A stretch of 64,000 bases of DNA. It comes from Rickettsiales bacterium. Lineage in GTDB: Bacteria; Pseudomonadota; Alphaproteobacteria; G027485855. A program made the translations under genes and the position numbers. Of the stretch, positions 18,117 through 43,613 are shown piece after piece. The notes beneath the pieces were generated by a model, which was not told the origin of the DNA, did not search any database, and saw only the letters and a program-made list of their open reading frames with translations. The stretch's first letter is position 1; each line of letters begins with the position of its first letter. The stretch lies in NCBI GenBank assembly GCA_027485855.1, contig JAIXQD010000019.1, positions 146,256 through 210,255 on the forward strand, written 5' to 3'.

Positions 18117-18533
18117 CTAGTTAGTGAAGTAATAATAACAACGAAAGCCGCACACCTCTTCGCTGCGCTGTTCGGCGCAACAAATCGGCCAATTGGCGGT
18201 GCCGGCCATGCCCTTTTTCTTAGGCTCGTAGGAACCTGGTAAAGCGCAGGCTTGATAGGCGCCCTCATATTGGAAATCGACAAAAATATCGGGCTTAAAG
18301 CCATAAATGATTTTTGCGCATTTGCCGGCCTCTTGCACCATAGCCTCGGGGTTTTCATAATCGGTGCAGTTAAAACTAAAGGGGCACGTAGCATCGCCCA
18401 AATTACTGGCGCGGTCACTAAAGGGTGAGATGCTGGTAAAATTAGCCGGCGGCGCTGGCCGCTGCTCGGTCTGCGCCATAGCTTGAGTAAAACCGCTGCA
18501 CAAAAAAACTAAAACAAAAAGAATAAAACGCAT
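18117..18533 (-). CDS. Small secreted Cys-rich protein (last gene of the pil/dot block)
   Basis: Has the signal peptide MRFILFVLVFLCSGFTQAMA and about 10 Cys in the mature part of about 118 aa. No recognisable family. Confidence 0.55.
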   Translation of the reverse strand: MRFILFVLVFLCSGFTQAMAQTEQRPAPPANFTSISPFSDRASNLGDATCPFSFNCTDYENPEAMVQEAGKCAKIIYGFKPDIFVDFQYEGAYQACALPGSYEPKKKGMAGTANWPICCAEQRSEEVCGFRCYYYFTN

Positions 18534-18545
18534 GGGTACATCCTG

Positions 18546-19916
18546 TTAGTTGGCGCGCTCATCACGCAAGGTCGCAATATCGGCCGCTTGTTGCTGCACC
18601 ATATGCCGCAGCTCGGCATTTTGTTGCGATAATTCGCGGATCGCTTCAATGACAGGCGCAATCAGATTGCCAATTTCAACGCCCAGCGTGCCGTTGGTAT
18701 CTATGGCGCGCACCAGCTCGGGGAAGGCTTTGGCCACATCTTGCGCAATCACGCCCATATCTGGCCTTTGCCCGTCTTTCCAAATATAGCTGACGCCCTT
18801 GATGGTCAGTAAGCGTGCTAAGGGCGAATTTATGTCTTCGATATTTTCTTTTAATCGGCCATCTGAGGTATAAACAAATGACGTCGCCTGCAAGGTGCCG
18901 GTAAAGGTGCCATCACCACCAGTAATTGTGCCAGCGGCCATGTTTATATTGCCGCCATTCGTGGCAATGTCGCCAGTATTAACAATGCCGCCATTGGCCA
19001 TGGTGAGCGCACCATTTATAATGGCATTACCACTGACATCGAGTGCGCGTGAGGCCACAGTGCCAGCATTAATAATGCGGCCATCTGCCGCGCTGTTCGA
19101 TTGCATATCGATATTGCCCGCTAAAGTAGAAATTGTGCCGCCATTGGTCAGAATGGGGCCGCCCGCCATGGTGATGCCATTGACGCCAGTAAAGAGTAAG
19201 GTTGTTTCCATAGTGTTGAGCGTTTGGGCTGGGTTATCGCTCACCTCATCGAGGCGGTGCAAATAACGCTGCGAGCTAAAGCCCAAATCAGGCGAGTAAA
19301 AACCCACACTCACCAACCGGCCGCTGATTGTGGCGGCCGCCACACCAAATTGTAAAGAGGCTACACAATAGCCGCTAAATGCACCGCTAATACTATCGGC
19401 CGCACAGCGCAGCGCGGGGTTGGCAAACATAGCGCCGCCCGCGGCACCCATTTGCGTTATCATGCTGCCGAGGCGCTGATCTTCGGGGATACCAAAGCCG
19501 GTGCCATTAACCGTGTAAACTAAAACATCAATACGCGTATCGGTGGTGTTATCCTGACGCCGAATAGCAATACGATAATCTTGCCCCTGCACATTGGTAT
19601 AGGTAAAACCAGGCGGCAAATAATTTTGCAAGGCCGCTGTTGTTTGTGCAGCATCTAAAACTATGGGTGCGGCCGTTGTGAAGCCAGCTGTCGCCACCAG
19701 CACGGTGTATTGCGCTTGAATATATGCCTCGGCCGCTCTGTGCACCATCATGTGCTGAGCGGCCATGGCGCTATCTTGCGCTTGGCGGCCCGCATTGGTG
19801 GTGAGCTGCAAAATAGAGGTAATCACCACGCCCGCCACCGCCAGCACAATGGCCATCTCGACCAACGAAAAACCCGCTTTGCTGAGCGCTAATTTGCTAT
19901 GCCAAAAAGCGCGCAT
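18546..19916 (-). CDS. pilV: PilV-position minor type IV pilin with beta-helical repeats and a tail-fibre intramolecular-chaperone (peptidase S74-like) C-terminus
   Basis: Prepilin N-terminus: SKAG|FSLVEMAIVLAVAGVV. Has a G/N/T/I-rich repeat core. The C-terminus is FVYTSDGRLKENIEDI...GVSYIWKD...GVIAQDV...LIAPVIEAIRELSQQN plus a coiled coil (about 18549-18885). Confidence 0.8.
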   Translation of the reverse strand: MRAFWHSKLALSKAGFSLVEMAIVLAVAGVVITSILQLTTNAGRQAQDSAMAAQHMMVHRAAEAYIQAQYTVLVATAGFTTAAPIVLDAAQTTAALQNYLPPGFTYTNVQGQDYRIAIRRQDNTTDTRIDVLVYTVNGTGFGIPEDQRLGSMITQMGAAGGAMFANPALRCAADSISGAFSGYCVASLQFGVAAATISGRLVSVGFYSPDLGFSSQRYLHRLDEVSDNPAQTLNTMETTLLFTGVNGITMAGGPILTNGGTISTLAGNIDMQSNSAADGRIINAGTVASRALDVSGNAIINGALTMANGGIVNTGDIATNGGNINMAAGTITGGDGTFTGTLQATSFVYTSDGRLKENIEDINSPLARLLTIKGVSYIWKDGQRPDMGVIAQDVAKAFPELVRAIDTNGTLGVEIGNLIAPVIEAIRELSQQNAELRHMVQQQAADIATLRDERAN

Positions 19917-20509
19917 TATGTGCCCCCATCAAGGATTGCCGCTTCGCCAGCTTCAAGCGGTGGTGTAAGCGTGATGCCGCTGACTTCTGATAAATCTATG
20001 TTGCTACTGAGCGCAAAGCCATTGCTGGCGGGGTCGTAGGCAAAAACATCCATGGTGAAGGCCGTGCCGGTATCTTCTAGCATGCCATATTGTACGCTAC
20101 GCCCCATGATACGCTCAAGCTCGCTGACTAAATCGCCACCCAGATATTGCGCAAAATTAGCTTGCGGCTCGCCGTTCGCATCAAGCGTGATAACATTGCT
20201 ATAAGTAAAAGTGTGCCGCGTGCCGCCGCGATTAAACGCCACCGAAAACCATAAATTATTATTGACCCCGCCCGGCCCATAAAGCGGCAAAATTAAAGCG
20301 GGGTCGAGCACTTGCACATCGCCTGGGTTAGCGACAATCACCGGATTTGCCCCAACGGCAGCCATGGCGGATTGATGCCAGCGCACCATTTGCTGGCCAT
20401 AAATTGTGGGTGGGTTAAGGCTTTGCCGCGCTAAAACATCGCTGGTGACTGTAACCAGCACGCCGCTGCTGATGGCAAGCAACAAAGCAATAAAAGCAAC
20501 TGCAAACAT
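19916..20509 (-). CDS. Membrane-anchored pilus-associated protein (possible non-canonical minor pilin)
   Basis: 197 aa with the N-terminus MFAVAFIALLLAISSGVLV. GGAGGG RBS upstream. Shares an ATGA-type 1-nt overlap with the pilV-like start. Confidence 0.5.
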   Translation of the reverse strand: MFAVAFIALLLAISSGVLVTVTSDVLARQSLNPPTIYGQQMVRWHQSAMAAVGANPVIVANPGDVQVLDPALILPLYGPGGVNNNLWFSVAFNRGGTRHTFTYSNVITLDANGEPQANFAQYLGGDLVSELERIMGRSVQYGMLEDTGTAFTMDVFAYDPASNGFALSSNIDLSEVSGITLTPPLEAGEAAILDGGT

Positions 20510-20611: not shown

Positions 20612-20652
20612 TAAGAAAAAGGCTCGCCACGCATAATATTGTGGCGAGCCTG
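20612..20652 (-). terminator. Hairpin plus T-run immediately after the major pilin gene
   Basis: On the minus strand: AGGCTCGCCAC-aatattatgc-GTGGCGAGCCT followed by TTTTTCTT. Confidence 0.6.
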
Positions 20653-20693
20653 ATAGTTTTACGCAACCAGCAATGCTGCCTTAACAGCAAAGC

Positions 20694-21305
20694 CTAGCGA
20701 ATAAAGAAGCGCCAAACCACATCAGCCGTTGCTGTGCCACAATCGGTGGCAATCGCAGCGGGGCTGAAGGCAGCATCAATAGCGGCTTGGTCGGCAAGAC
20801 CGGCTAAAACAATTTCAGCGCCTGTGCCTGCGGTAATACCAACAAGGCCCACATCGGCGCCAAGGTTGCGGGCGCGCGTGGCCAGCTCAATGCAAGCCGC
20901 ACCCGGAATGCCGGTCATGCTGACGGTGAACTCATTCACCGATGTGCCCGCATCAACCGAAAGCGTGGTAGCACCACCCCAAGCGGTGGTGGCGTTAGTG
21001 GCATCGACAATCATGTCGGCGGGGATAACCCGTGCCGCAATCATCGCCGCCGTATTAAGGCCGGCTGAAGTATTGGAGCCGGCATAAAGATTGCGCACGC
21101 CTTGCACAATTTGCAGCAGCTGCTGGTGACCTTTGGTTTCGCGCATATTTTCGTAAACGCTCGCGGCGGCAATCCAGATACCGCCGACAACCAAGCCAAC
21201 GATGGCCAGCACGATGGCCGCCTCAATGAGGTTAAAACCACGGCGCAGCAGCGACACCGATTTATCTTGGTTCTTCTGCAATTGAACACGAGACAGTAAA
21301 CGCAT
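20694..21305 (-). CDS. pilS: Type IVb major prepilin (PilS-like)
   Basis: Has a 23-aa basic leader ending RRG|FNLIEAAIVLAIVGLVVGG, and a C-terminal Cys pair (AACIEL...ATDCG) consistent with a D-region disulfide. Confidence 0.8.
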   Translation of the reverse strand: MRLLSRVQLQKNQDKSVSLLRRGFNLIEAAIVLAIVGLVVGGIWIAAASVYENMRETKGHQQLLQIVQGVRNLYAGSNTSAGLNTAAMIAARVIPADMIVDATNATTAWGGATTLSVDAGTSVNEFTVSMTGIPGAACIELATRARNLGADVGLVGITAGTGAEIVLAGLADQAAIDAAFSPAAIATDCGTATADVVWRFFIR

Positions 21306-21459: not shown

Positions 21460-22536
21460 CTAAAACTTGCCGCCACCACCAGAGCTGAGTGTGGTGGTAA
21501 TGCCCACAATGCTGGATAGGGCCCAAGCAATAATGGCACCCACACAGCCCAAACCAACATAACGCACAATTTGGGCCTGACTGCGTAGTTTATCGATTTG
21601 CTCGCGCATCCACTCATCGGTGACTTTGCGCAGCACATCGGCCACATCCGAACGCTCGGACAGAATTTCTAAATCAAGTGCCAGCTGCGGGTCGGGGAAG
21701 TTGTAGTTGGTTTGCCGCAAAGCCTCACCTAAATTGCGCCCGCGCATCACTTCTTCGCGCGTGGCGGCAATGCGTTGCTTGAGCCACGGGTTAGCCTGCA
21801 CCTCGAGCACTTCTAAGGCACGCTTAAGCGACACTTGCGCTTGCAACAAAGCCGACATGGACAACAAAAACGCACTGCCCTGCCACAAGCGATACCATGA
21901 CCAAGGCGGGAACATATCAAACATCGCACGCACATGCCCGCGCCAAACCGGCATGAGCATGGCAAGGCCAACCATGAGGCCAATAACAAACACCAGCGTC
22001 AGCAAGCCCCATGAGCGAATATAATCGGACACACTGGCAAGGCTGCCCATGCTGGCAATCACTTGTGGTGGGGCCATTTGCCGCATTGGCTCAATCATAT
22101 TGACACCAAACAACCACAACACCGCCCCCAACAGCATCAGCATAAACACCGGATACCCGACGGCTTGAATAATAGCGCCCTTCATTTCTTTGCTGCGGTC
22201 GCCCATTTCAAGAATCTGTTGCATGGCCAGCGCAACTTGCCCCGCTTCTTCGCCCGCTTTTATCATGAACAACTCAGACAGCGGCACCCAGCCCACCATG
22301 GCTTCAGACAGGCTCTCACCCGCACGGTCACGCTCAAACCATTCTTTGAGCGCCAAAGCTGCGGCCTTGCGCGGATAGCGCCCGCGCTCGGTGACATTAT
22401 TGTAAAGCCGCTCAAGACAGCGCGACAGCGCCTCATTCATGGCCATCATGCCTTGCAGCTTGCGATAAATGCGAAAACGCTCGCTGCGATTAAGCCGAAA
22501 ACTGAGCTGCGCCAGACTGCGTGCCGTATCTACCAT
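21460..22536 (-). CDS. pilR: GspF/PilC-family platform protein (PilR-like)
   Basis: 358 aa with the GspF-type topology (three TM segments). Located downstream of the ATPase gene with a 7-nt overlap. Confidence 0.82.
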   Translation of the reverse strand: MVDTARSLAQLSFRLNRSERFRIYRKLQGMMAMNEALSRCLERLYNNVTERGRYPRKAAALALKEWFERDRAGESLSEAMVGWVPLSELFMIKAGEEAGQVALAMQQILEMGDRSKEMKGAIIQAVGYPVFMLMLLGAVLWLFGVNMIEPMRQMAPPQVIASMGSLASVSDYIRSWGLLTLVFVIGLMVGLAMLMPVWRGHVRAMFDMFPPWSWYRLWQGSAFLLSMSALLQAQVSLKRALEVLEVQANPWLKQRIAATREEVMRGRNLGEALRQTNYNFPDPQLALDLEILSERSDVADVLRKVTDEWMREQIDKLRSQAQIVRYVGLGCVGAIIAWALSSIVGITTTLSSGGGGKF

Positions 22537-24458
22537 GAACCCCCCATGCCTAGAAGGCTCTCAACATCTTTAAGGCCGCGATCGCTAATGAGTGGCCCCA
22601 GCTCAAACTCGGCATCTTGTGGGGCAACTTCGCCCTTACGAATTTTATAAAGCGCGTGACCGGCCATGGTAATACCATTAAGGCCATGCGGGCTAAGCCA
22701 GTATTTGCGCGCATCTTCCATGCGGTTTTCAGACAGCAGCGCCATCAGGCGCATATCGGTTTCAATCACCTCGGCCGCAATGGTGCGGCCCACCCGCCCC
22801 TTAAAACAATGGCGGCAGCCCTCAATATTAGGAAAAAATACCTCTGACAGATCGGGCTCGCGCAAGCGGTTGAGCGGGTCGGATAATTCATCGGCTTTGG
22901 GGTCGCGCTCGGCATCAAGCAAGGCCAGCGCGGCCCTGATACGGCGCGCCAAAGGATCAAGCTCGGGGCTATCGGCCACGGCTTTTTTAAGCGGAATGCG
23001 GCAATGCGGGCAAAGCTGACGCATGAGACGCTGACACATCATGCCTTTGACCAAATGATGGTCATAAACCAAATAAGGCTCTAGCCCCAAATCGCGCAGA
23101 CGCTGCGGCACCGCAATGGCCGAATAAACGTGCAAGGTGGTGTACACCTGCCGCCCCGTGAGCGCCAAACGAAACAGAAAATTCGCCGTGGTTAAATCGC
23201 GGGTTTCGCCCAACATCACAATATCGGGGTCAAGGCGCAAGGCCGAGCGCATAATTTCAATGAAGGTTTTTTCGCGCATTTCATCTTTAGCGCTGGCGGC
23301 CACGCCAATTTGCCGCGCCCCTAAAACGCCGCCTTCGGGCGGGTCTTCAATCATAAGGCAGTTCAATTGGTAATTGGTCTCGGCCATGCGCCGATTAAGC
23401 ATCACCCGCAAGGTGGTAGTTTTACCTTGGTTAACCGGGCCGGTAATAATGCGCATACCGCCCGGCGTGTTACGCAAGCTGCGCACCGCCTCCATTTGCT
23501 CGGGCAAAAAACCCAGCTGGTCAACATCGGCCGCCATAAAATTGGCCCCAAAAATATGCAGGCCATCATATTGCAAGCGCATATCAAGATAGCGCCCACC
23601 ATCAGCCAGCGGCATCCATTGGCAGCGCACGCTTAAAATACCATCGGGAAACTGAATAGCATCAAGGCCGCTTTGTGGCACCAGCATGGCCGCCATGGGC
23701 TCTAGCCAATTTGCGGTGGCGCCCGACTGCACCGATGAGTGCGAATAAACCGATGAGAGAAACTGGTCGCCCTCGCGCTGGGTCCAGGTTTCCCACAGGC
23801 GCAAGGCACCATCAACCCGAAACTCAACTTTGGTACGGCCGGCGCTGGCCTCGATGTGAATATCGTTGGCGCCAAACTCTTTGGCTTTTTGCAAAGTCTC
23901 ATTTATTTTACGGCGAACCGAGTTATCATCTTGTTTGCTTGATGAGACGGCACGCTCGGCATAAAAATAGGCCTGCCGAATAATATCGGGCGTCACATAG
24001 GTTGGGTCATTAACCCGAAAACCCTGCCGCCGCGCCGACACCGCAACCGAAGTAATCAGCGGCGAGTTTTTATGGCTTTCTGACACCAGCCACATGCCAC
24101 TATCGAACAACACGCAAAGACCGCGAGAGTCGGGTGCAATTTTGAGCGGCCCATTGGGCGAGGTTAAAACCTGCCCCACAAAAATAATGCGCTTATTGCC
24201 ACCGCCATCGGTGGTCATTTCCTCGGCGGCGCGGTCTGGCTCGGCGACGGGCGCGGCGGCCTCGATGGCGGCTTGTTCTTTGGTTGGCTGTTCTTTGTTA
24301 TCTTTATTGGGATTATTTTTATTGCCGGCGCCGGCCAATGCAGGATTCTTTTTGCGCTCGCCGCTGTTGCTACTGGCTTTTTTTGGGTTAAGCGCGGCCT
24401 TAGCTGATGCCTCGCCACTCATGAGATTGCTCAGTTTTTGCATCAACCCATCAAACAT
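22530..24458 (-). CDS. pilQ: GspE/PilB-family assembly ATPase (PilQ-like in R64 nomenclature)
   Basis: Has Walker A GPVNQGKTTT, DPDIVMLGETRD, and the tetracysteine CPHC...CRHC. The N-terminus is K/N/A-rich and low-complexity. Confidence 0.9.
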   Translation of the reverse strand: MFDGLMQKLSNLMSGEASAKAALNPKKASSNSGERKKNPALAGAGNKNNPNKDNKEQPTKEQAAIEAAAPVAEPDRAAEEMTTDGGGNKRIIFVGQVLTSPNGPLKIAPDSRGLCVLFDSGMWLVSESHKNSPLITSVAVSARRQGFRVNDPTYVTPDIIRQAYFYAERAVSSSKQDDNSVRRKINETLQKAKEFGANDIHIEASAGRTKVEFRVDGALRLWETWTQREGDQFLSSVYSHSSVQSGATANWLEPMAAMLVPQSGLDAIQFPDGILSVRCQWMPLADGGRYLDMRLQYDGLHIFGANFMAADVDQLGFLPEQMEAVRSLRNTPGGMRIITGPVNQGKTTTLRVMLNRRMAETNYQLNCLMIEDPPEGGVLGARQIGVAASAKDEMREKTFIEIMRSALRLDPDIVMLGETRDLTTANFLFRLALTGRQVYTTLHVYSAIAVPQRLRDLGLEPYLVYDHHLVKGMMCQRLMRQLCPHCRIPLKKAVADSPELDPLARRIRAALALLDAERDPKADELSDPLNRLREPDLSEVFFPNIEGCRHCFKGRVGRTIAAEVIETDMRLMALLSENRMEDARKYWLSPHGLNGITMAGHALYKIRKGEVAPQDAEFELGPLISDRGLKDVESLLGMGGSW

Positions 24459-24526: not shown

Positions 24527-25462
24527 CTAATTTTTATCAAGGGTAACGGTTTGCTCTTTGCCCTTACTATTGCGCAAAACTACGCTATCGGCAGAGATGG
24601 ACACAATTTGCTGACCATCAGCCAAACTATCGCCAATGCCGACATTTTTGCGCTCGCCGCCACTGCTGACGGTGGCCCGCAGCGAACCTTCAGCCCCTGA
24701 AATGCGCTCAATTTCAACTTTGCCCTCGGGGTTGCGGCGCGGCGAAATGGTGGGCGCAATATTTGCCGATGAATTAAAAGACGGCGAAATATTGGTGGAA
24801 ACGCTCTGCGGATTTGATGGTGCAGGCGGTGGCGGTAAGGGCGTAAGCGAACTGGCTGGCACTGCCGGAATGCCCGATAAGCCACCCGCGCCACCAAAAG
24901 AGGGGCGAGATTTTTGCTCACGCGCATCACGAATTTTGCTGATCTCAGTAAGTTGTTTTTCAATACTGTTCAAAATCTCAAGGCGCTTTAAGGCGTCTTC
25001 AGCGGCGGCGATATCATCAAGGCTGATGCGCGATTGGTCGTTGCGCAGGCGCTCGAGCACTTTATTGACGGCAGCAATATCTTCGGCCGAGCGCGCTTTA
25101 CTGCCGCCAGCTTGAGCGGTTGCGCTGCCGGTATTAGCACTGCCAGCATTCGGCATGCTGGGCACAGCCCCTTGCGTTGCCAAAGGCTTGCCCGCGCCAT
25201 CAAGCAACACAGCTGAGGCGCTGTTGCTGGCGCTATTATTTGTGCTTGTTACTGTGCTGGGGCTGGCGCTATCGGCAGTTGAATTTTTTTCATCGGTCAG
25301 GCTTGGTGCAGGCGGCGGCAATTTTGCTTGCGGCACCTGGGCTAAAGCCGCGCTGCTCAAAAACGCCAGCAGCGTACAACCACCCAACATTAAAATGAGT
25401 TTATGGCCAATAAGTTGATGGCCAATGAGTTTATGGCTGGGTATGGGTTTAGCGCATTTCAT
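24527..25462 (-). CDS. pilP: PilP-like pilus biogenesis protein
   Basis: Has a signal/TM segment, a long Ser/Ala/Pro linker, and a C-terminal beta domain (RATVSSGGERKNVGIGDSLADGQQIVSISADSVVL). Start chosen at MKCAKP. Confidence 0.6.
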   Translation of the reverse strand: MKCAKPIPSHKLIGHQLIGHKLILMLGGCTLLAFLSSAALAQVPQAKLPPPAPSLTDEKNSTADSASPSTVTSTNNSASNSASAVLLDGAGKPLATQGAVPSMPNAGSANTGSATAQAGGSKARSAEDIAAVNKVLERLRNDQSRISLDDIAAAEDALKRLEILNSIEKQLTEISKIRDAREQKSRPSFGGAGGLSGIPAVPASSLTPLPPPPAPSNPQSVSTNISPSFNSSANIAPTISPRRNPEGKVEIERISGAEGSLRATVSSGGERKNVGIGDSLADGQQIVSISADSVVLRNSKGKEQTVTLDKN

Positions 25463-28340: not shown

Positions 28341-28439
28341 ATTGACTCTCCGCTCCACCAAAACCCCGAACCCCCGAAAGAAGCCCCAAAGAAACCCACT
28401 ATAAAACGCACCACAAAGCGCACCATAAAGTTCTGCGGC

Positions 28440-32643: not shown

Positions 32644-32919
32644 CTACTTGCTATAAAGCCAAGCAAAACCAGCCAGCGTTGCGGCAGGCAGTAATTTTAT
32701 TAACCCGCTAATGTAACGACCCTCTATTACATCAACCACAGCCAGCATAAAAACCCCGCCCGATGCCAAGCCAAAAATAATCACACCGGGTGGTAGGCCC
32801 AGCCATAATTTATTTTTGGCCGCCGTAAGGCCACCAAGACCCGCAAGGCCTTGTGGTTTTTTGCTGACCATGGCGGGCGGCGCGGCACTGGTTTTTTGCG
32901 GCAGGTTTTTATCGGTCAT
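32644..32919 (-). CDS. Small two-TM membrane protein
   Basis: 91 aa with two hydrophobic helices. No recognisable family. Confidence 0.45.
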   Translation of the reverse strand: MTDKNLPQKTSAAPPAMVSKKPQGLAGLGGLTAAKNKLWLGLPPGVIIFGLASGGVFMLAVVDVIEGRYISGLIKLLPAATLAGFAWLYSK

Positions 32920-35266: not shown

Positions 35267-35836
35267 TTATCTTTTGTCTGGAATAAGGGGAGCAGTTGCA
35301 GGAGCTGGCACAGAAGAGGGTGTTGTGGCTTGTGGGGCACGCAAACGCGCCAGCTCTTTTTCGCTGCTACGATATTGGCACAAACCATAGCTAAGGCTGC
35401 CATTGCTGCCGCCTTGCTCATCGGCAGTGGCCGTATTGCAGGCCGCATCACGCGCCGCGACAAATTTATCAAAAGCCGCTTGTACGGCAGGGTCGATTTT
35501 TATGGCTGTGCCATCAGTGGGCTTTTGCTCGGTGGGTTTTTGCTGAGTGGGGCTGTGCATCGATTGCATCTGCGCTAACAGCACAGCATCAAGCTTGGCG
35601 CCTTCTTCGAAAATGCAATCGGTTTGGGCTAAAATATTTTCTAGCTGTTCGCAGCGGCTTAAATTGGGGGCTTTGCTATTGGCTGCCTCGGATGCTGCGG
35701 GTGCAGCCTTTGCGGCCACGGGCGCTGCTGTTTGCGAATGCGCCGGCAGCACAAAGGTCGCCGTGATAAGGCCAAATAAGGCCAAGGCGGTGATAAGCAA
35801 GCGCATGCGCATGATGCTCTTTTTTTGCTGTTGCAT
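35267..35836 (-). CDS. Periplasmic DUF1311/LprI-like protein; candidate immunity protein for the upstream lysozyme-like tail
   Basis: Has a signal peptide and a DUF1311-like Cys pattern: CEQLENILAQTDC...FVAARDAAC...GSNGSLSYGLC...ELARL. Its RBS AGGAGG lies inside the last codons of the upstream gene, with the ATG 3 nt after the stop. Confidence 0.55.
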   Translation of the reverse strand: MQQQKKSIMRMRLLITALALFGLITATFVLPAHSQTAAPVAAKAAPAASEAANSKAPNLSRCEQLENILAQTDCIFEEGAKLDAVLLAQMQSMHSPTQQKPTEQKPTDGTAIKIDPAVQAAFDKFVAARDAACNTATADEQGGSNGSLSYGLCQYRSSEKELARLRAPQATTPSSVPAPATAPLIPDKR

Positions 35837-38555: not shown

Positions 38556-40541
38556 CTACCCACGGGGCCGATAAATTTGTGTGGCACCACCAAACCTGTT
38601 AAAATAGCCATTACGTGCCAAGCCCACATTGGCACCGCGCCCATTATTATTATAGGCCAGCGTGCAGCCCACATTGGCGCAAATGCCCACATGGCTATAC
38701 ATACGGCCGCCCACCACACCACGTATCATCACAATATCGCCGGGCTGCGCTTGTCCGGGGCTGACGCGTGTGCCACCGCCACTTTGTAAATAATTCTGCA
38801 TGCCGGCCACGCTGAGCGTGCCACCGGGAGGAATCATGCTGCGCCCCGATGCGGCCAGCAAATAATTGACATATTGGGCGCAGCCAAGGTTGCCCGTATA
38901 GGCAGGGCCGCACACCACCGCACCATTACGGCCGCTGGTGCAGTTAGTCGCATCGGCATAGCCACCCGGAATGGGCCGCCCCACTAAAGATTGCGCAAGC
39001 GCCATAAGATCGTTGCTGACAACTTGAATGCCAGATAGGCCGCCGCCGCCCTCGGCAACATCGCCGCCCGTGCCATCAAAATCAATATTATCGCCTTGCA
39101 GTTCGGCAAAAGAGGCTTCGGCTAAATCAAAATCGACATAGCGCACATCGTCGTTCACGCCATCCGCATTGACATCTAAATCAAGAATCTCGCCAACACC
39201 CGTGGGCAGCGGTAAGCTGGTGGGAGTTGCACCTGGCGCTAATTGTGGCAGTGGTATTTTGTTTTTATCGCTGGATAAAATGCTCGCTTCGAGCAGGCCA
39301 AGTTGCTCAAGCAGTTCGTGCTTGCGCCATTTCAGCTGATTATAAGTGCCAAATGTTTGGCTGATATAACGCAGTTTTACACTGTCAGGGGCGCTGGCGG
39401 CGGCGATATTCCAGCTGGTGCTGAAGCGCTCACGAAACAGCAATTCCATAATTTTATGCTCGGACAACACAGCATCGGCCGGAATATCATAGCCAAATTC
39501 TTGCATCAGCGCCTTGCCCCAGTTCAGCGGGCTTGCAGCATTGCCGCCCGCTTCGGCCGAAATGGGCATGCGCCGTGCGGCAATCTGCGCGCAAACATGC
39601 CCCGCCAGCTGTTTGGCCGCCTGCCAGCCGCGCAGTTTCATCATGTAAACCGGATTGGCGTTGGCCAAATTGCCCCGCACCGGATCCAGCGTGACGGGCA
39701 ATATCACATTTTCGCAATAGGTGAGCGCGGCCAGCTTGGCCCAATCGGGCTCGCTTGGGTTTTGATAGCGCAGGCGCAAAATATCGTGCGTTAAAATAGT
39801 GCGCGGCATAATATCAAAATCGGCCAAGGCACCATCGGTGCATTCAGTGTTTTTGGGGTCGGTGTTTTTACAATTTTGGAAATTGAGCATGCGTTTTTCA
39901 AAGCGCTCATTCACATCGGCCAGCATGCCACGCGCGGCGGCCACCTCGGCGCAGGCACTGTCATTATCGGCTGCCGCCGGAATATCAAGCCCCAATAAAC
40001 GAGCCGTTTGGCGCAAGCGCTCATGCGCCGAGCCGCAATCACGATTAACCAGGCGGTCTTCGACCGCAGCTTCAATCGGCACGGCTTGCAGCGCCGAGTT
40101 ATTTTCGGCCGCCATCAGCGCTTGCTGACCCGAGGCCGCAACACAGCTTTGCCGGCCAACATCCGGCGTGAAATTTTGCGCAACCTGCATTTTGGCTTCG
40201 CGCTGCATGTTTTCGTAACTTGCCTGATTTTCGGCATTGGCGATTTTTGCACTGACTTGCGCACTGAGCTGCTGCGCCGATACTTCGGCCGTGCTGCCCG
40301 CGCTTTCTAAAAACTGCATAATAGCCACAAAGGCTGCTTGAATGGCTGTGGCCACCGCAGTCAAAGCGCCACCCACAGCAACAGTGGGTGCAATGGCCGC
40401 AGCACAACCAGGGCAAGTATCCATCGCGGCGCTGGCCTGTGCGGCGCGCGGCGGCAGGGCCAGCCCCACCACCAACAGCAACGCCATCACGCCAAAACGG
40501 CAGCGCGCCATACGAGTACCTGCGCCAGCAAGAGACAGCAT
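38556..40541 (-). CDS. Paralogue B: shared N-domain plus a C-terminal CHAP/NlpC-P60-like domain
   Basis: ATG at 40541 has AAGGAGG 8 nt upstream. The ORF-track start at 40712 would overlap paralogue C. The C-terminal 150 aa (38559-39008) has GCAQYVNYLL (Cys nucleophile context) and GDIVMIRG...YSHVGIC (His), which is a CHAP/NlpC-P60 arrangement. Confidence 0.75.
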   Translation of the reverse strand: MLSLAGAGTRMARCRFGVMALLLVVGLALPPRAAQASAAMDTCPGCAAAIAPTVAVGGALTAVATAIQAAFVAIMQFLESAGSTAEVSAQQLSAQVSAKIANAENQASYENMQREAKMQVAQNFTPDVGRQSCVAASGQQALMAAENNSALQAVPIEAAVEDRLVNRDCGSAHERLRQTARLLGLDIPAAADNDSACAEVAAARGMLADVNERFEKRMLNFQNCKNTDPKNTECTDGALADFDIMPRTILTHDILRLRYQNPSEPDWAKLAALTYCENVILPVTLDPVRGNLANANPVYMMKLRGWQAAKQLAGHVCAQIAARRMPISAEAGGNAASPLNWGKALMQEFGYDIPADAVLSEHKIMELLFRERFSTSWNIAAASAPDSVKLRYISQTFGTYNQLKWRKHELLEQLGLLEASILSSDKNKIPLPQLAPGATPTSLPLPTGVGEILDLDVNADGVNDDVRYVDFDLAEASFAELQGDNIDFDGTGGDVAEGGGGLSGIQVVSNDLMALAQSLVGRPIPGGYADATNCTSGRNGAVVCGPAYTGNLGCAQYVNYLLAASGRSMIPPGGTLSVAGMQNYLQSGGGTRVSPGQAQPGDIVMIRGVVGGRMYSHVGICANVGCTLAYNNNGRGANVGLARNGYFNRFGGATQIYRPRG

Positions 40542-40560: not shown

Positions 40561-41820
40561 TTATTTTTCCCACGGCGCTTTCGCCGATGTGGGCGTGGCA
40601 CCCGCGGGCAAGACCGGCGGATTATCCTGCAACACAGCCGAAAGCTGCGCTGCACGCAACATAGCCAAACGCTCGAGCATTTCATATTCGCGCCACTCTT
40701 GCTGCGAGACAAACGCCAAAGACTGGTTGATAGAGGTCAGCATGTCTTTCGGTTCGCTATTGGCGTAAAAGGCCACATCCTTGAAAATATCGTAGTAAAG
40801 CGTGCGCAAAATATCTTGCTCTGAAGCATTTTCCGGCACGGTGCGGCCAACACGGGCGGCAATGGTTTTGCCCCATTCAAGCCTGCTGGTATCAACTGGT
40901 GCGCCACCGCGCGTCACTTCGTTGGCGGGCGTGCGCGTGGTCATTATGTCAAGGCAGACGAGATCGACCAAGCTGAGGCGCGCATCCACACCACGACGCT
41001 GCATGTGATAGACCCGACCTTGCGGGCTATTCAGCAACTGGCCCGTGACGGGATCAGGCACAACGGGGTCTTTGATGTGGCTACAAAAAAGCTGAGCTGC
41101 GCCCACATGGCCATCATCGCCCGAGCCCAAATTATCGGACAGCAGAATATCGGCGCGAATATCGGTGTTTCTCTTGTTGGGGTCATCTTGGCAGCGTGGA
41201 TTTTTGGGGTCAACCTGATCGCAATCAAGATAGCCGCCCTTGGCCAAAGCGACCACACTGGCCGACGCATCGGCCTGCGTGCCGCGCTGGGCGGGGCCTG
41301 CAGCATTAGTGCTGCGCTTTAATGCATTGCCACGAGCCACACTGGCTAAAAAGCGCGTATTGGCTGCCGCTGCTGTTGCCGCTTGCGCACCCGATGCGCG
41401 CACGCACGCATCTTTATTGGTGGATGGGGCATATTGCTGCGCCACCCGCATTTTGGCTTCGCGCTGCAGATTTTCAAAATCATTCTGAATTTTGGCATTG
41501 GCTATTTTAGCGTCAATTTGTGCTTGCAACTGCACCGCCGAAACTTTGGCCGTGCTGCCCGCGCTGGTGATAAAACTGAGCATCAGCTGCATAGCAGTGA
41601 TAGCGGCAGTTAACACGCCTGTGACCGCAGCACCAACAGCCGTAACCGCGCCCACCAACGCTTGCGCTTGTGCCACTTGCGGCGTGCCAAACAACAAAGC
41701 ACCCGCCAGCAACAAAGTGGCCGCGCCCCTGCCTAAAGACCCCAAGGGATTTTTTCGCGGATTTTTTTGCGGATTTTGCCGCCGATTTTGCCCCGCGCTA
41801 TTTTGCATAAGCTGGTGCAT
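40561..41820 (-). CDS. Paralogue C: the shared N-domain only, with no enzymatic tail
   Basis: 419 aa. Aligns by eye with A and B: SAGSTAKVSAVQLQAQIDAKIANAKIQNDFENLQREAKMRVAQ matches SAG[AS]TA[DE][IV][ST]A[EQ]QL..QV..KIANAE.QN.YEN[LM]QR.AKM.VA. Ends just after the shared LPAGATP junction. Confidence 0.7.
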   Translation of the reverse strand: MHQLMQNSAGQNRRQNPQKNPRKNPLGSLGRGAATLLLAGALLFGTPQVAQAQALVGAVTAVGAAVTGVLTAAITAMQLMLSFITSAGSTAKVSAVQLQAQIDAKIANAKIQNDFENLQREAKMRVAQQYAPSTNKDACVRASGAQAATAAAANTRFLASVARGNALKRSTNAAGPAQRGTQADASASVVALAKGGYLDCDQVDPKNPRCQDDPNKRNTDIRADILLSDNLGSGDDGHVGAAQLFCSHIKDPVVPDPVTGQLLNSPQGRVYHMQRRGVDARLSLVDLVCLDIMTTRTPANEVTRGGAPVDTSRLEWGKTIAARVGRTVPENASEQDILRTLYYDIFKDVAFYANSEPKDMLTSINQSLAFVSQQEWREYEMLERLAMLRAAQLSAVLQDNPPVLPAGATPTSAKAPWEK

Positions 41821-42890
41821 TAGTTACCCCCTCGCGGCGCAAAGGGCGAGGTTATACCCGGCACCCGTGTTGTGCCTATCTCCTTATCGGTATCTCTCGT
41901 GCGGAACTGGAAGGTCACGCCACGCGAAGGCATATTGGCATTGCGTGCTTCAAGGCTGCGTGGGTCCATAATATCTTGTGCCGAAAGATCGACGCCAAAA
42001 ATGCGCGCCCCACGGAACAGGCCGCTAATATCGCCGCCATCACGCAGCGGCGCCCAGCCATCACAGAAACCACCATGCACATTACCGAGCTGATTAAGGT
42101 CAGGGCCGATATTGAGAAAATCTAACCCAGGAATGCAAATTGAATTGGCGATAAAATCAACCGCCATTTGAAGGGCCTGACAGGCCGCATTAATGACCGC
42201 ATCAATGATTTGTTTGAAAATCATATCGGCCAGCGCGCGCACTAAACCCAGCGGGTCGCTCAAAATTTTAATGAGGTCGAAAGCCGCAAACATTTTCACG
42301 AGGCAAAAGCGGTCTTCGATTTTTCGGGGGCCCTCGCCTAAGGCGTTCATATTGGCCGCCAAGGCGTTGGTGGCTTGCGCTTCGCTGCCGGCGACAATGG
42401 CATCTTGAATAGGGTCTAAGCAATCTTCGGTGGACATGGCTTTTGCAGCGGCATTGCCATAATCGGTTGCGGCCTTATTGGCTTTATCGCTGCCAGGCAC
42501 ACCTGGCACTGGCCCCGAACCTGTCATTTGTGCGGCAGCTTTATCAAGCGCGCTGCTCAGCTCTTTGGGGTTGGTTACTTCGCTGGCTGTTGGCACGGGC
42601 GATGGGTCGGGGTCGGTTGTGCCCGTATTGCCGCCCGTATTGCCACCCGTGTTACCAGTTGTGGTAATATTTGCCGTACCGCGCGAATTACCGGTTGTTA
42701 TGCCATCAGCAATAAAAGGCGGCTCATCCGCAGGATTCACCGGAACCCGCGGATTAGATATAACTGGCGCTGCAGGTGCGGCAACGCCGCCACCAATCAC
42801 TCGGTCTGGTGTGGCAATAGCAGGCGAGATCCCAAATACAAATAACGCGCAGAGCAACGCAAAGGTCAGAATAAATGAGCGTAGCAACAT
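41820..42890 (-). CDS. Secreted ORFan with a G/N/T-rich linker and a Cys-containing helical C-domain
   Basis: Start chosen at MLLRSFILTFALLCALFVFG (GGAGAGG RBS). Its stop overlaps the paralogue C start (TAATG). Confidence 0.55.
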   Translation of the reverse strand: MLLRSFILTFALLCALFVFGISPAIATPDRVIGGGVAAPAAPVISNPRVPVNPADEPPFIADGITTGNSRGTANITTTGNTGGNTGGNTGTTDPDPSPVPTASEVTNPKELSSALDKAAAQMTGSGPVPGVPGSDKANKAATDYGNAAAKAMSTEDCLDPIQDAIVAGSEAQATNALAANMNALGEGPRKIEDRFCLVKMFAAFDLIKILSDPLGLVRALADMIFKQIIDAVINAACQALQMAVDFIANSICIPGLDFLNIGPDLNQLGNVHGGFCDGWAPLRDGGDISGLFRGARIFGVDLSAQDIMDPRSLEARNANMPSRGVTFQFRTRDTDKEIGTTRVPGITSPFAPRGGN

Positions 42891-43025
42891 GGGCCTCTCC
42901 CGATTCTTCACACGATTCTTCACACAATTATTCATTGGCGCGCGAAATTTAAACATTTAGCCTTACATTTATGGCTGATTATGCTTAAAGCAACCTTAAT
43001 TGTTTTGCAGCCGTTTTTATACAGC

Positions 43026-43613
43026 TTATTGCGGCGCAACTGGCACCGCAGATTTGGGTGCAAGACGGTCGGCATTGGCTGTGCGCCAGTCTTTAATAAA
43101 GGCGCTGATAAGGCCAGAGAAGTTTTTAGAAACTTCTGCCCGGTTATTTTGCACACTGGTGCGCACCAAACCGCCGCGCTCCCAGTAATTAACCGTAATT
43201 GTTTTGCGCCGTGCATTGGGCGGCAAGCGCACCGTGTGCGCCGCTTGCGCCGACAAAGAGAGCCAAGCCACACACTCGAGCGGGGCAGATTTTACCACCG
43301 CCAAAACCGGAAACAGGGTGAGGCGCAGCACATCGGCCTTTTGTGGAGGGGCCGTGCGCGCATCATAGGCCGCCAGCATTTCGCCATGTAAAGTAACACG
43401 CATGGCCTCGGCCACTTCTTGGGCTGAAACAAGGCAATCTTCGGCGTTACCGACTGGACGCAAGGTTAAATCGGCCATGGCCAGCTCGCTGACACCCCAT
43501 AAAGGCGGCAAGGTGCGATCGCGGGCCGAGGGTTGCGAGGTTCCCTCTTGCGCCCAAGCGGGCAGGGCAAACAACACAAGCAGTATCAATGTATAAAAAC
43601 CAAGCCCGCGCAT
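43026..43613 (-). CDS. Secreted ORFan (first gene after dksA)
   Basis: 195 aa with the signal peptide LILLVLFALPAWAQE. No recognisable family. Confidence 0.5.
   Translation of the reverse strand: MRGLGFYTLILLVLFALPAWAQEGTSQPSARDRTLPPLWGVSELAMADLTLRPVGNAEDCLVSAQEVAEAMRVTLHGEMLAAYDARTAPPQKADVLRLTLFPVLAVVKSAPLECVAWLSLSAQAAHTVRLPPNARRKTITVNYWERGGLVRTSVQNNRAEVSKNFSGLISAFIKDWRTANADRLAPKSAVPVAPQ

What the first reader, a model, noticed from the sequence alone, without database searches (positions are those of the whole stretch)
18117..43613. A 25.5-kb one-directional block between dksA and gap combines a type IVb pilus set with only four Dot/Icm genes and has no DNA-transfer or mobility genes
All 24 ORFs run on the minus strand. 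Gaps are mostly 0-30 nt and many junctions are overlapping stop/start pairs. The order is two ORFans, the three paralogues with coupled small genes, a cytoplasmic ORFan, SLT, a DsbC-like gene, a small membrane protein, dotD-dotC-dotB-icmT, pilL-N-O-P-Q-R-S, a membrane protein, pilV-like, and a Cys-rich protein. In IncI plasmids (R64) and Legionella, traH/I/J/K (dotD/C/B/icmT) come with about 20 further genes: DotA, DotG/H/F, DotO, DotL/M and, on plasmids, a relaxase. None of these is contiguous here, because housekeeping genes flank both sides. I see no integrase, transposase, tRNA or flanking direct repeats, so this looks like a chromosomally fixed module rather than an ICE. A machine made of the PilN secretin, the PilQ ATPase, the PilR platform, DotC/DotD lipoproteins, a PilT-like DotB and IcmT is not a described secretion-system type, as far as I know.
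Basis: partly seen in the sequence, partly recalled or inferred. Interest (0 to 1): 0.85.

Follow-up and report, generated by a model that had tools for sequence, protein, structure and literature searches.

The report
One arm of a split T4BSS
This gene block is probably not a new minimal secretion machine but one half of a Legionella/IncI-type type IVB secretion system joined to its thin-pilus genes, in a relative of the predatory bacterium Micavibrio; its unusual feature is that two channel-tip (IcmX-like) proteins carry cell-wall-cutting enzymes.

Summary
The layout is real: 25 minus-strand ORFs (18117-43613) sit between dksA and gap, with no tRNA, mobility genes, flanking repeats or GC anomaly.

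"Only four Dot/Icm genes" is wrong. The three paralogues are TraW/IcmX homologues, so the block holds seven T4BSS genes.

The order dotD-dotC-dotB-icmT-pilL…pilV is a known MPF_I layout (Pseudomonas plasmid pND6-2).

All 20 related chromosomal loci come from Micavibrio or Micavibrio-like/unclassified alphaproteobacterial MAGs. Where enough context was available (L026/L006, L022, L012), the same genes continue upstream into further T4BSS genes. L026/L006 carries dotG, traQ, dotN, dotO, dotM and dotL. L022 has dotO, dotM and dotL, and L012 has dotL. The window matches L022 from g24 onward and breaks just after dotL.

The block is therefore most likely one arm of a relaxase-less T4BSS plus type IVb pilus.

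The new feature: two IcmX-like proteins end in peptidoglycan hydrolases (VgrG3C-like, and probably CHAP/NlpC-P60). Each is followed by a small signal-peptide gene, a possible immunity protein. Relatives show similar fusions. This suggests a T4BSS aimed at bacterial prey, which is untested.

The parts
43026..43613 (-). g25, 195 aa, signal peptide; first gene of the block, no homologue found
   Evidence: no family; starts 9 nt after the dksA stop
41820..42956 (-). g24, 378 aa, N-terminal hydrophobic segment; conserved unknown that sits between dotL and the first IcmX-like gene in relative L022
   Evidence: BLASTP to the L022 325-aa gene, E = 1.9e-15; no Pfam or NCBIfam hit
40561..41820 (-). g23, 419 aa, TraW/IcmX-like paralogue 1 (core domain only)
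   Evidence: paralogy; family profile against IncI TraW E = 3e-8, hhalign 91.8%; against Legionella IcmX E = 2.5e-5; best Foldseek hit 9NGY DotA-IcmX protochannel; tblastn to Acetobacter MPF_I plasmids E = 1e-6
38556..40541 (-). g22, 661 aa (the longest ORF would reach 40712), TraW/IcmX-like paralogue 2 with a probable C-terminal CHAP/NlpC-P60 peptidoglycan amidase/endopeptidase
   Evidence: 52-60% identity to g20 over the core; C-terminal 221 aa: CHAP E = 2.8e-4 and NlpC/P60 E = 4.6e-3, both below Pfam cut-off; the database gene call is 661 aa
38164..38547 (-). g21, 127 aa, signal peptide; putative immunity protein for g22
   Evidence: position 8 nt after g22; N-terminal signal-like sequence; no family hit; role inferred
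35840..38137 (-). g20, 765 aa, TraW/IcmX-like paralogue 3 with a C-terminal VgrG3C-like peptidoglycan hydrolase
   Evidence: Pfam T6SS_VgrG3-like_C, residues 552-699, E = 1.5e-19; PDB 4NOO/4NSO VgrG3C E = 2.4e-6, with the YES and D-GG-S-G-YQ motifs aligned
35267..35836 (-). g19, 189 aa, signal peptide; putative immunity protein for g20
   Evidence: 3 nt after g20; weak LprI lysozyme-inhibitor hit E = 0.002, below cut-off; role inferred
34397..35260 (-). g18, 287 aa, cytoplasmic; conserved unknown that always precedes SLT in relatives
   Evidence: 44-73% identity in L003, L005, L006, L007, L008, L012 and L022, weaker in L014 and L018; no family hit
33900..34394 (-). g17, lytic transglycosylase (SLT)
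   Evidence: Pfam SLT E = 1.8e-6; homologous to the SLT on the Acetobacter MPF_I plasmid and to the IncI pil-region transglycosylase
32935..33867 (-). g16, periplasmic DsbG/DsbC-like thiol:disulfide isomerase
   Evidence: NCBIfam DsbG E = 7e-28, below cut-off; conserved in relatives
32644..32919 (-). g15, 91 aa, two hydrophobic segments; conserved small membrane protein
   Evidence: homologues in 10 relatives' loci plus L022; hydropathy
32017..32514 (-). DotD/TraH lipoprotein
   Evidence: Pfam DotD E = 8.7e-30; NCBIfam DotD E = 4.8e-29
31155..32072 (-). DotC/TraI (start codon uncertain)
   Evidence: Pfam T4SS_TraI E = 4.5e-76; 50-67% identity to 20 Micavibrio-like loci
30004..31179 (-). DotB (PilT-family ATPase)
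   Evidence: NCBIfam DotB 404 bits against TraJ 245 bits; 49.5% identity to Legionella adelaidensis DotB against 33% to IncI TraJ
29732..30004 (-). IcmT/TraK
   Evidence: NCBIfam IcmT_TraK 82.6 bits, above the cut-off of 40
28440..29543 (-). PilL-like (TcpQ domain)
   Evidence: Pfam TcpQ E = 1.5e-14; homologous to the pND6-2 TcpQ-family gene
26706..28361 (-). PilN secretin
   Evidence: Pfam Secretin; pND6-2 PilN E = 6e-61
25449..26702 (-). PilO (type IVb)
   Evidence: Pfam PAP_PilO E = 2.2e-30
24527..25513 (-). PilP-like (start codon uncertain)
   Evidence: NCBIfam pilP_fam E = 2.7e-5, below cut-off
22530..24458 (-). PilQ assembly ATPase
   Evidence: Pfam T2SSE E = 2.5e-55
21460..22536 (-). 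PilR platform protein
   Evidence: Pfam T2SSF E = 1.6e-23
20694..21305 (-). PilS type IVb major prepilin
   Evidence: Pfam PilS E = 4e-14 and Bundlin E = 3e-9; the leader ends RRG|FNLIEA
20620..20651 (.). perfect 12-bp palindromic hairpin in the 184-nt gap after pilS (possible attenuator)
   Evidence: terminator-like sites overall are not above the shuffle expectation
19916..20509 (-). g3, 197 aa, one N-terminal hydrophobic segment; unknown
18546..19916 (-). PilV-like minor prepilin with a C-terminal Peptidase_S74 intramolecular-chaperone domain (phage tail-fibre type)
   Evidence: Pfam Peptidase_S74 E = 1.9e-15 and N_methyl; pND6-2 PilV E = 4.9e-13
18117..18533 (-). g1, 138 aa, secreted Cys-rich protein; unknown

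Best explanation
The block is the downstream two-thirds of a chromosomal, relaxase-less type IVB secretion system (Dot/Icm / MPF_I lineage) joined to an IncI-type type IVb thin-pilus operon. The organism is an uncultured alphaproteobacterium related to the epibiotic predator Micavibrio.

Shown by homology:
- DotC and DotD are outer-membrane core lipoproteins.
- DotB is the PilT-family ATPase.
- IcmT is the small inner-membrane component.
- The three tandem TraW/IcmX homologues correspond to the VirB5-like subunit that, with DotA, forms the central protochannel in Legionella.
- PilL, N, O, P, Q, R, S and V form the thin-pilus set.
- SLT and a DsbG-like isomerase are assembly helpers.

Inferred from relatives: the remaining core genes (dotI/H/G, traQ, dotN/O/M/L, dotA) lie at another locus of this genome. 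A rearrangement cut the ancestral roughly 45-kb cluster just downstream of dotL.

Inferred mechanism: the thin pilus, tipped by a PilV-like adhesin with a tail-fibre-type domain, captures a target bacterium. The T4BSS then docks. Two of the IcmX-like subunits carry peptidoglycan hydrolases (a VgrG3C-like muramidase and a probable CHAP/NlpC-P60 enzyme) that breach the target's wall. The small periplasmic proteins encoded right after them protect the producer. Substrates are proteins, not DNA.
For: Same gene order on a known system: pND6-2 has DotD-TraI-TraJ-IcmT-(2 genes)-TcpQ/PilL-PilN-PilO-PilP-PilQ-PilR-PilS-ATPase-PilV, with DotG/H/I elsewhere. The window's Pil proteins match pND6-2 best.

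Relatives:
- A DotC scan gave 20 loci, all Micavibrio or Micavibrio-like/unclassified alphaproteobacterial MAGs, including the M. aeruginosavorus chromosome. NCBI files Micavibrio under Bdellovibrionales, which explains the MAG names.
- Synteny g18-SLT-DsbG-small-DotD-C-B-IcmT-PilL..R is seen across these loci.
- L026/L006 is one contiguous one-strand cluster: DotG (partial), x, TraQ-like, x, x, IcmJ/DotN, a 1031-aa Walker-A ATPase 40% identical to the plasmid TraU/DotO-position protein, DotM, x, DotL, four secreted proteins, then the window's gene order.
- L022 has DotO, DotM, DotL, a g24-like gene, three IcmX-like genes (one Pesticin-fused, one NlpC/P60+CHAP-fused, each followed by a small gene), g18, SLT, DsbG, small, DotD....
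- L012 has a coupling protein upstream.
- L025 has DotH and two DotI genes next to two TraW-like genes.
- M. aeruginosavorus L014 has two IcmX-like genes and a DotI-like gene nearby.
- DotL/IcmO orthologues are abundant in such MAGs.

Published survey: MacSyFinder found the relaxase-less pT4SSi type in seven marine Micavibrionales (PMC9418006).

TraW/IcmX identity.

Hydrolase domains. Across the family, members are fused to CHAP, NlpC/P60, M23, VgrG3C or Pesticin.

Role of DotA-IcmX: bioRxiv 10.1101/2025.06.23.660953 and PMC12857230.

No relaxase appears in the window or in the roughly 40 kb of L026+L006.
Against: - The rest of this genome could not be examined. No DotL hit carried the window's contig length among the 120 listed. 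The presence of the other arm here is therefore inferred, not seen.
- No DotA homologue was identified in any relative's locus I read.
- Similarity to Legionella IcmX itself is weak (hhalign 54%, Foldseek TM 0.29).
- The CHAP/NlpC-P60 call for g22 is below Pfam cut-offs, and its structure model failed (pLDDT 36).
- The immunity role of g19 and g21 rests on position, signal peptides and one sub-threshold LprI hit.
- M. aeruginosavorus IcmX-like proteins carry no hydrolase domain, so the fusions are not universal.
- The predatory lifestyle of this organism is inferred from relatedness only.
- The hydrolases could instead serve the machine's own passage through the producer's wall.
Confidence: 0.72

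Rival explanations
1. One reading: the genome has no other T4BSS genes. A type IVb pilus machine has recruited DotB, DotC, DotD, IcmT (and IcmX-like proteins) to form a self-contained hybrid secretion or pilus apparatus. DotB might act as a retraction ATPase and DotC/DotD as secretin-associated lipoproteins.
For: None of DotG/H/I/N/O/M/L or TraQ is in the 64-kb window. All block ORFs are intact and tightly packed. The traHIJK-pil juxtaposition is conserved from plasmids to Micavibrio-like chromosomes, which could reflect functional coupling. The 2011 M. aeruginosavorus genome paper reported no T4SS (PMC3189940).
Against: Every relative with enough context has further T4BSS genes adjacent or nearby, including M. 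aeruginosavorus itself with a DotI-like gene. The window is collinear with L022 up to a breakpoint just after dotL, the signature of a rearrangement rather than a designed minimal set. In Legionella, IcmX works with DotA and DotB docks on DotO, and both partners are absent from the block. A survey found complete pT4SSi systems in Micavibrionales.
Confidence: 0.1
2. Decaying remnant: a rearrangement separated this arm from the rest of a T4BSS that has since been lost. Only the type IVb pilus, and perhaps the hydrolases, still function, and the Dot genes are on their way to becoming pseudogenes.
For: The cluster is truncated relative to L022 and L026. Cluster composition varies among relatives: L003 and L014 lack adjacent pilN-S.
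Against: All seven T4BSS genes are full-length, with no frameshifts or stops. They keep 50-76% identity to orthologues and score well against family models. Overlapping start/stop junctions are preserved.
Confidence: 0.08
3. Arm of an IncI-like conjugation system or ICE that transfers DNA, with the relaxase, oriT and integrase elsewhere.
For: The closest plasmid homologues of DotC and the TraW-like genes are on conjugative MPF_I plasmids with MOBP relaxases. Thin pili serve liquid mating in IncI plasmids (established knowledge for R64).
Against: The 64-kb window has no relaxase, integrase, tRNA, repeats or GC shift, and none appears in about 40 kb of the complete cluster in L026/L006 or in L022. 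DotB, DotN and DotM match Legionella-type models better than plasmid ones. Micavibrionales systems were typed as relaxase-less pT4SSi. Plasmid homologues are only 33-42% identical.
Confidence: 0.05
4. Same split T4BSS, but the hydrolase domains on the IcmX-like proteins only remodel the producer's own wall for machine assembly (a VirB1-like role). The target is a eukaryotic host rather than bacteria.
For: T4SS loci commonly encode wall hydrolases for assembly. Known Dot/Icm systems target eukaryotes. The lifestyle of this uncultured organism is unknown.
Against: A dedicated SLT is already present. The VgrG3C domain is known as an antibacterial effector with a cognate immunity protein (PDB 4NOO). 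Each hydrolase-bearing paralogue is followed by a small signal-peptide gene, here and in L022. The hydrolase type varies among relatives in the manner of a polymorphic toxin. The lineage includes a proven bacterial predator.
Confidence: 0.15

Closest known systems
MPF_I plasmid pND6-2 of Pseudomonas putida (NC_018746), traH-I-J-K + pilL-V arm
   Same: Same gene order and strand: DotD/TraH, TraI/DotC, TraJ/DotB, IcmT/TraK, TcpQ-family PilL, PilN, PilO, PilP, PilQ, PilR, PilS, PilV. The other T4BSS genes (DotG/H/I) sit at a separate locus. The window's Pil proteins are most similar to these.
   Different: pND6-2 is a plasmid with replication and partition genes. It has ParM and one more gene between icmT and pilL, and an extra PilT-like ATPase before pilV. 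No TraW-hydrolase fusions were seen in the part read. Identity is only about 40%.
IncI1/IncK plasmid (R64-type) tra/pil region
   Same: Thin-pilus genes lie adjacent to traE-K. TraW, TraY, TraU and the rest are part of the same system. TraW is homologous to the window's paralogues.
   Different: The order is pil then tra. IncI also has a prepilin peptidase, PilM, the rci shufflon, a relaxase (nikB) and exclusion genes. TraW is single-copy with no hydrolase domain. TraJ is only 33% identical to the window's DotB.
Legionella Dot/Icm T4BSS, region I (dotD-dotC-dotB / dotA-icmV / icmW-icmX)
   Same: dotD-dotC-dotB are adjacent and near icmX. DotB is 49.5% identical. DotD and DotB match Legionella-type models best. 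Both are relaxase-less protein secretion systems split over several loci.
   Different: Legionella has no linked type IVb pilus, one IcmX with no hydrolase fusion, DotA/IcmV/IcmW in the same region, icmT in region II, and eukaryotic targets.
Vibrio cholerae T6SS spike VgrG3 with immunity protein TsiV3
   Same: The same peptidoglycan-hydrolase domain is fused to the C-terminus of a structural tip protein of a secretion machine and followed by a periplasmic immunity gene.
   Different: The carrier is a T6SS spike, not a T4BSS IcmX-like protein. g19 shows no detectable similarity to TsiV3.
Bacteria-killing T4ASS of Xanthomonadales (X-T4SS; Xanthomonas, Stenotrophomonas)
   Same: A type IV secretion system used against bacteria, with wall-degrading effectors paired with immunity proteins (PMC6759196 and PMC11253643, listed).
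   Different: That is a VirB/D4 type IVA machine. Its effectors are separate proteins with a C-terminal XVIPCD signal recruited by VirD4, not fusions to a machine subunit, and it has no type IVb pilus.

Membership tests
Type IVB secretion system (Dot/Icm; MPF_I) | DotC/TraI and DotD/TraH outer-membrane lipoproteins | tested here: met
   Pfam T4SS_TraI E = 4.5e-76 and DotD E = 8.7e-30; NCBIfam DotD
Type IVB secretion system (Dot/Icm; MPF_I) | DotB/TraJ ATPase and IcmT/TraK | tested here: met
   NCBIfam DotB 404 bits (best model, though below the equivalog cut-off of 463); IcmT_TraK 82.6 bits, above the cut-off of 40
Type IVB secretion system (Dot/Icm; MPF_I) | TraW/IcmX (VirB5-analogue) | tested here: met
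   family profile against IncI TraW E = 3e-8, hhalign 91.8%; against IcmX E = 2.5e-5; Foldseek top hit is the DotA-IcmX protochannel; relatives carry Pfam TraW-like (weak)
Type IVB secretion system (Dot/Icm; MPF_I) | VirB4-family ATPase DotO/TraU and coupling protein DotL with DotM/DotN | tested here: not met
   Absent from the 64-kb window (tblastn) but present next to the same genes in relatives L022, L026 and L012. Not testable for the rest of this genome.
Type IVB secretion system (Dot/Icm; MPF_I) | DotG/DotH/DotF core, DotI, and DotA/TraY | tested here: not met
   DotG, DotH and DotI queries gave no hit in the window. DotF was not queried. No multi-pass large membrane protein lies in the block. 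DotG/H/I are seen in relatives L025, L026 and L014. DotA was not identified in any locus read.
IncI-type type IVb thin pilus (R64 Pil) | PilL, PilN secretin, PilO, PilP, PilQ ATPase, PilR platform | tested here: met
IncI-type type IVb thin pilus (R64 Pil) | Type IVb major prepilin PilS and minor prepilin/adhesin PilV with G|F..E cleavage motif | tested here: met
   Pfam PilS/Bundlin and N_methyl; sequences RRG|FNLIEA and KAG|FSLVEM; homology to pND6-2 PilV
IncI-type type IVb thin pilus (R64 Pil) | Dedicated prepilin peptidase (PilU), PilM, and rci shufflon for PilV switching | tested here: not met
   No peptidase A24, PilM or recombinase in the window, whereas the IncI plasmid has them. A peptidase elsewhere in the genome is likely but was not testable.
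Integrative conjugative element / conjugative system | Relaxase, oriT, integrase, attachment repeats, tRNA target, compositional shift | tested here: not met
   oriT itself is not testable by sequence alone.
Polymorphic peptidoglycan-hydrolase toxin with immunity protein | Recognisable hydrolase domain with catalytic motif on a shared carrier domain | tested here: met
   g20: VgrG3C domain E = 1.5e-19 with the Glu and Asp motif positions aligned. g22: CHAP/NlpC-P60 only sub-threshold. The family shows CHAP, NlpC/P60, M23, VgrG3C and Pesticin fusions.
Polymorphic peptidoglycan-hydrolase toxin with immunity protein | Cognate immunity protein that neutralises the toxin | tested here: inconclusive
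   Small signal-peptide genes directly follow g20 and g22, and the two fused paralogues in L022. There is only a sub-threshold LprI hit for g19. Binding and protection are not testable with these tools.

The most novel reading that the evidence does not exclude
Micavibrio-type predators use a chromosomal Dot/Icm-like T4BSS, guided by a type IVb thin pilus, as their prey-attack device. The IcmX-like channel-tip subunits have been multiplied and armed with interchangeable peptidoglycan hydrolases, each with its own immunity protein, to drill through the prey wall. This would be the first T4BSS aimed at bacteria, and the first case of enzymatic 'warheads' fused to a VirB5-analogue, as VgrG3 carries one on the T6SS spike. 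The still more radical reading, that this genome has only this arm and it works as a self-contained hybrid machine, is not excluded; I give it about 0.1.
Probability: 0.35. Interest if true: 0.8.

Novelty: new variant of a known kind. Interest (0 to 1): 0.55.

Why it matters
How epibiotic predators such as Micavibrio attach to, breach and drain their prey is unknown. A 2025 review calls the junction's molecular basis unknown (PMC12428579). [quoted passage not shown]

These data show that the Micavibrio lineage, including M. aeruginosavorus itself, carries T4BSS genes linked to a type IVb pilus. In several members the IcmX-like subunits carry wall-degrading domains.

This gives a concrete, testable candidate for the predation apparatus in a culturable organism. 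It would also extend T4BSS biology from eukaryotic hosts and conjugation to bacterial killing.

For the finding as submitted, the practical lesson is the opposite. A partial Dot/Icm set next to pil genes is the normal layout of one arm of an MPF_I system and not evidence of a new machine.

Tried and rejected
- Word-indexed protein search with the paralogue core found only the window's own two genes. The exhaustive HMM search was needed.
- Sequence search of PDB with the g22 C-terminus found nothing. PDB search with the family profile did not reach IcmX.
- BLASTP of the g22 C-terminus against the NlpC/P60-fused relative P0015 matched only a short QPGD..HVGI motif. phmmer among family members gave nothing.
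- The single-sequence AlphaFold model of the g22 C-terminus was unusable (pLDDT 36), so no fold search was run on it.
- NCBIfam and Pfam gave nothing for g1, g3, g15, g18, g21, g24 and g25.
- Looking up the window's own contig to read the rest of the genome failed twice. R64 itself (AP005147) is not in the plasmid collection, so I used an IncK plasmid instead. Pasternak 2014 (PMC3930308) is not held.
- I looked for the window's contig length (306,152) among DotL hits as a fingerprint for a second locus and found none in the 120 listed. This is inconclusive.
- Flanking direct repeats were rejected as chance. Promoter and terminator scans were at shuffle expectation.
- I considered an ICE and a conventional conjugation arm and rejected both for lack of any mobility or relaxase gene, here and in the relatives' full clusters.

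Full report
**What is in the sequence**

The interval 18117-43613 holds 25 consecutive minus-strand ORFs. Of the 24 internal junctions, 17 are 32 nt or shorter and 7 of those overlap. gap (17100-18107) starts 9 nt after the last gene. dksA (43623-44063) ends 9 nt before the first, with fliX and flgI beyond it.

In transcription order the block reads as follows:

| Genes | Identity |
|---|---|
| g25 | 195 aa, secreted, no homologue |
| g24 | 378 aa |
| g23, g22, g20 | three paralogues (419, 661 and 765 aa) |
| g21, g19 | small signal-peptide genes after the second and third paralogue |
| g18 | cytoplasmic, 287 aa |
| g17, g16, g15 | SLT, DsbG-like isomerase, 91-aa membrane protein |
| g14-g11 | DotD, DotC/TraI, DotB, IcmT/TraK |
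| g10-g4 | PilL (TcpQ domain), PilN secretin, PilO, PilP, PilQ, PilR, PilS prepilin |
| g3 | 197 aa |
| g2 | PilV-like prepilin |
| g1 | secreted Cys-rich, 138 aa |

The window has no tRNA and no compositional shift. It has no flanking repeats beyond chance. Every other sizeable ORF is housekeeping, flagellar or unknown. None is an integrase, transposase, relaxase or prepilin peptidase.

**The three paralogues are TraW/IcmX homologues**

- They share a core of about 420-500 aa with no Pfam or NCBIfam match.
- A word-indexed search found only the window's own two genes. An exhaustive profile search of 1.84 billion representatives found 23 remote relatives.
- Several of those relatives carry a precomputed, weak Pfam "TraW-like" hit.
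- g23 hits a hypothetical protein on Acetobacter MPF_I conjugative plasmids (E = 1e-6).
- The family profile aligns over nearly its full length with annotated IncI TraW (E = 3e-8; hhalign 91.8%). It aligns more weakly with Legionella IcmX (E = 2.5e-5; hhalign 54%).
- An AlphaFold model of g23 (pLDDT 68) has one credible PDB match, the DotA-IcmX protochannel 9NGY (E = 1.6e-3, probability 1.00, TM 0.29). The next hit is a thousand-fold worse.

IcmX is the VirB5-analogue that, with DotA, forms the central channel of the Dot/Icm machine. The block therefore holds seven T4BSS genes, not four.

**The tra-pil juxtaposition is a known layout**

Pseudomonas plasmid pND6-2 (typed MPF_I) carries DotD/TraH, TraI, TraJ, IcmT, two genes, then TcpQ-family PilL, PilN, PilO, PilP, PilQ, PilR, PilS, an ATPase and PilV. 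This is the same order and strand as the window. Its DotG/H/I lie elsewhere on the plasmid. The window's Pil proteins are most similar to these. IncI/K plasmids also place pil next to traE-K.

The nearest plasmid DotC homologues (about 42%) are on Acetobacter and Kozakia plasmids. The one I inspected (pAPA01-020) is conjugative with a MOBP relaxase. DotB is closer to Legionella DotB (49.5%) than to IncI TraJ (33%).

**Relatives show the rest of the machine**

A genome scan with DotC returned 20 loci at 50-67% identity. All come from Micavibrio or from MAGs labelled Alphaproteobacteria, Pseudomonadota/Proteobacteria, Rhodospirillaceae, Bdellovibrionales or Pseudobdellovibrionaceae. They include the complete M. 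aeruginosavorus HCB189 chromosome. NCBI taxonomy files Micavibrio under Bdellovibrionales, which explains those names. The core order g18-SLT-DsbG-small-DotD-DotC-DotB-IcmT-PilL…PilR recurs across them.

- **L026/L006 (same genome).** One strand carries DotG (partial), an unknown, a TraQ-like protein, two small paralogues, IcmJ/DotN and a 1031-aa Walker-A ATPase. This ATPase is 40% identical to the ATP-binding protein at the TraU/DotO position of the Acetobacter plasmid. After it come DotM, a small gene, DotL, four secreted proteins, and then the window's order through PilR.
- **L022.** This locus has DotO, DotM, DotL, a g24 homologue (E = 2e-15) and three tandem IcmX-like genes. One of these is fused to a Pesticin lysozyme and one to NlpC/P60+CHAP, and each is followed by a small gene. 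g18, SLT, DsbG, the small gene and DotD follow. The window is thus collinear with L022 from g24 onward and stops where dotL would be.
- **L012.** A coupling protein sits at the same upstream position.
- **L025.** DotH and two DotI genes lie beside two TraW-like genes.
- **M. aeruginosavorus (L014).** It has two IcmX-like genes and a DotI-like gene close to its DotD-C-B-IcmT-PilL cluster. This is despite the 2011 statement that it has no type IV secretion system.

DotL/IcmO orthologues are numerous in such MAGs. A published survey typed relaxase-less pT4SSi systems in seven marine Micavibrionales. No relaxase appears in about 40 kb of L026+L006.

**Position in the genome**

The closest Gap proteins are 81% and 79% identical. 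The second lies on the same 916-kb contig as L022, about 300 kb from its T4BSS. Both have other neighbours, tkt and a ParA-like gene respectively. The dksA-gap location is therefore specific to this lineage. That fits a rearrangement that separated the arm from dotL and the genes upstream of it.

**What could not be done**

The window's own contig is masked in the look-up tools. I could not check whether dotI…dotL and dotA lie elsewhere in this genome. The split-system reading rests on four points:

- relatives carry the other T4BSS genes;
- the window is collinear with L022 up to a breakpoint just after dotL;
- all seven T4BSS genes in the block are intact;
- DotB is known to depend on DotO, and IcmX on DotA.

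I put it at about 0.7-0.75, the self-contained hybrid at about 0.1, and a decaying remnant or a conjugative arm lower.

**The unusual part**

- g20 ends in a VgrG3C-type peptidoglycan hydrolase (Pfam E = 1.5e-19; PDB 4NOO E = 2.4e-6, with the YES and D-GG-S-G-YQ motifs aligned).
- The g22 C-terminus gives sub-threshold CHAP and NlpC/P60 hits over the same stretch, which contains a Cys…His pair. Its structure model failed.
- Each is followed within 3-8 nt by a small signal-peptide gene. g19 has a weak lysozyme-inhibitor (LprI) hit.
- Across the family, the IcmX-like core is fused to CHAP, NlpC/P60, M23, VgrG3C or Pesticin domains.

This is the pattern of polymorphic wall-degrading toxins with immunity proteins, carried here on a structural subunit of the channel, much as VgrG3 carries the same domain on the T6SS spike. 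In a lineage that contains a proven epibiotic predator, this suggests a T4BSS aimed at bacteria, with the thin pilus capturing prey. The PilV-like pilin has a phage tail-fibre-type S74 chaperone domain. Literature searches found no description of such a system.

The idea is inferred and untested. The hydrolases could instead serve self-assembly, and M. aeruginosavorus lacks the fusions.

**Verdict**

The interpretation as a new type of secretion system is not supported. The block is best read as a new variant of a known kind: one arm of a chromosomal T4BSS plus type IVb pilus cluster in the Micavibrio lineage, with hydrolase-armed IcmX paralogues as the feature worth following up.

Noticed in passing
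window 18546-19916 (-): The PilV-like minor prepilin ends in a Peptidase_S74 intramolecular-chaperone domain (E = 1.9e-15), preceded by a Gly/Asn/Thr-rich repeat region. This is the architecture of trimeric phage tail fibres and endosialidases, and is unusual on a pilin. It may be the target-recognition adhesin, taking the place of the IncI shufflon.
   Followed up: partly
L014 (Micavibrio aeruginosavorus HCB189 chromosome, NZ_CP195303.1) 6723-13933, 17514-20077, 20508-20804: The cultured predator carries DsbG-like, g18-like, SLT, DotD, DotC, DotB, IcmT, PilL, two TraW/IcmX-like genes and a DotI-like gene. The 2011 genome paper reported no evidence of a type IV secretion system. Here pilN-S are not adjacent.
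   Followed up: partly
window 1-4119 (-) and 53684-58525 (-): Two very large ORFs have no Pfam hit at all: at least 1373 aa (runs off the window start) and 1613 aa (with a signal peptide). They could be adhesins or secreted factors of this organism.
   Followed up: no
window 20620-20651: A perfect 12-bp-stem palindrome lies in the 184-nt gap right after the major pilin gene pilS. It may be an attenuator that sets the pilin-to-minor-pilin ratio. Terminator-like sites overall are not enriched over shuffles.
   Followed up: no
window 44092-44120 (-): The best sigma-70-like match in the region (TAGACA-17-TATAAT, 11 of 12) lies upstream of dksA. The block's first gene starts only 9 nt after the dksA stop, so the block may be read through from the dksA promoter.
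   Followed up: no
window 38556-40712 (-): The longest ORF for paralogue g22 (718 aa, TTG start) would overlap g23 by 152 nt. The database gene call is 661 aa, starting at 40541. Start codons of DotC, DotD and PilP are likewise uncertain: they show apparent overlaps of 25-65 nt, and the 305-aa DotC product is not on record.
   Followed up: partly
L008 129-4576; L026 3337-4206: Another relative has three tandem paralogues of about 490 aa upstream of g18. Their N-termini (CxxC plus an Ala/Val-rich hydrophobic stretch) resemble the window's IcmX-like proteins, but they match the family profile only marginally (E = 3e-5 to 1e-3). L026 has a tandem pair of 134- and 140-aa paralogues between the TraQ-like gene and DotN.
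   Followed up: partly
window 59263-60975 (-): A heparinase II/III-like C-terminal domain protein (E = 3.5e-40) lies in an otherwise housekeeping neighbourhood.
   Followed up: no
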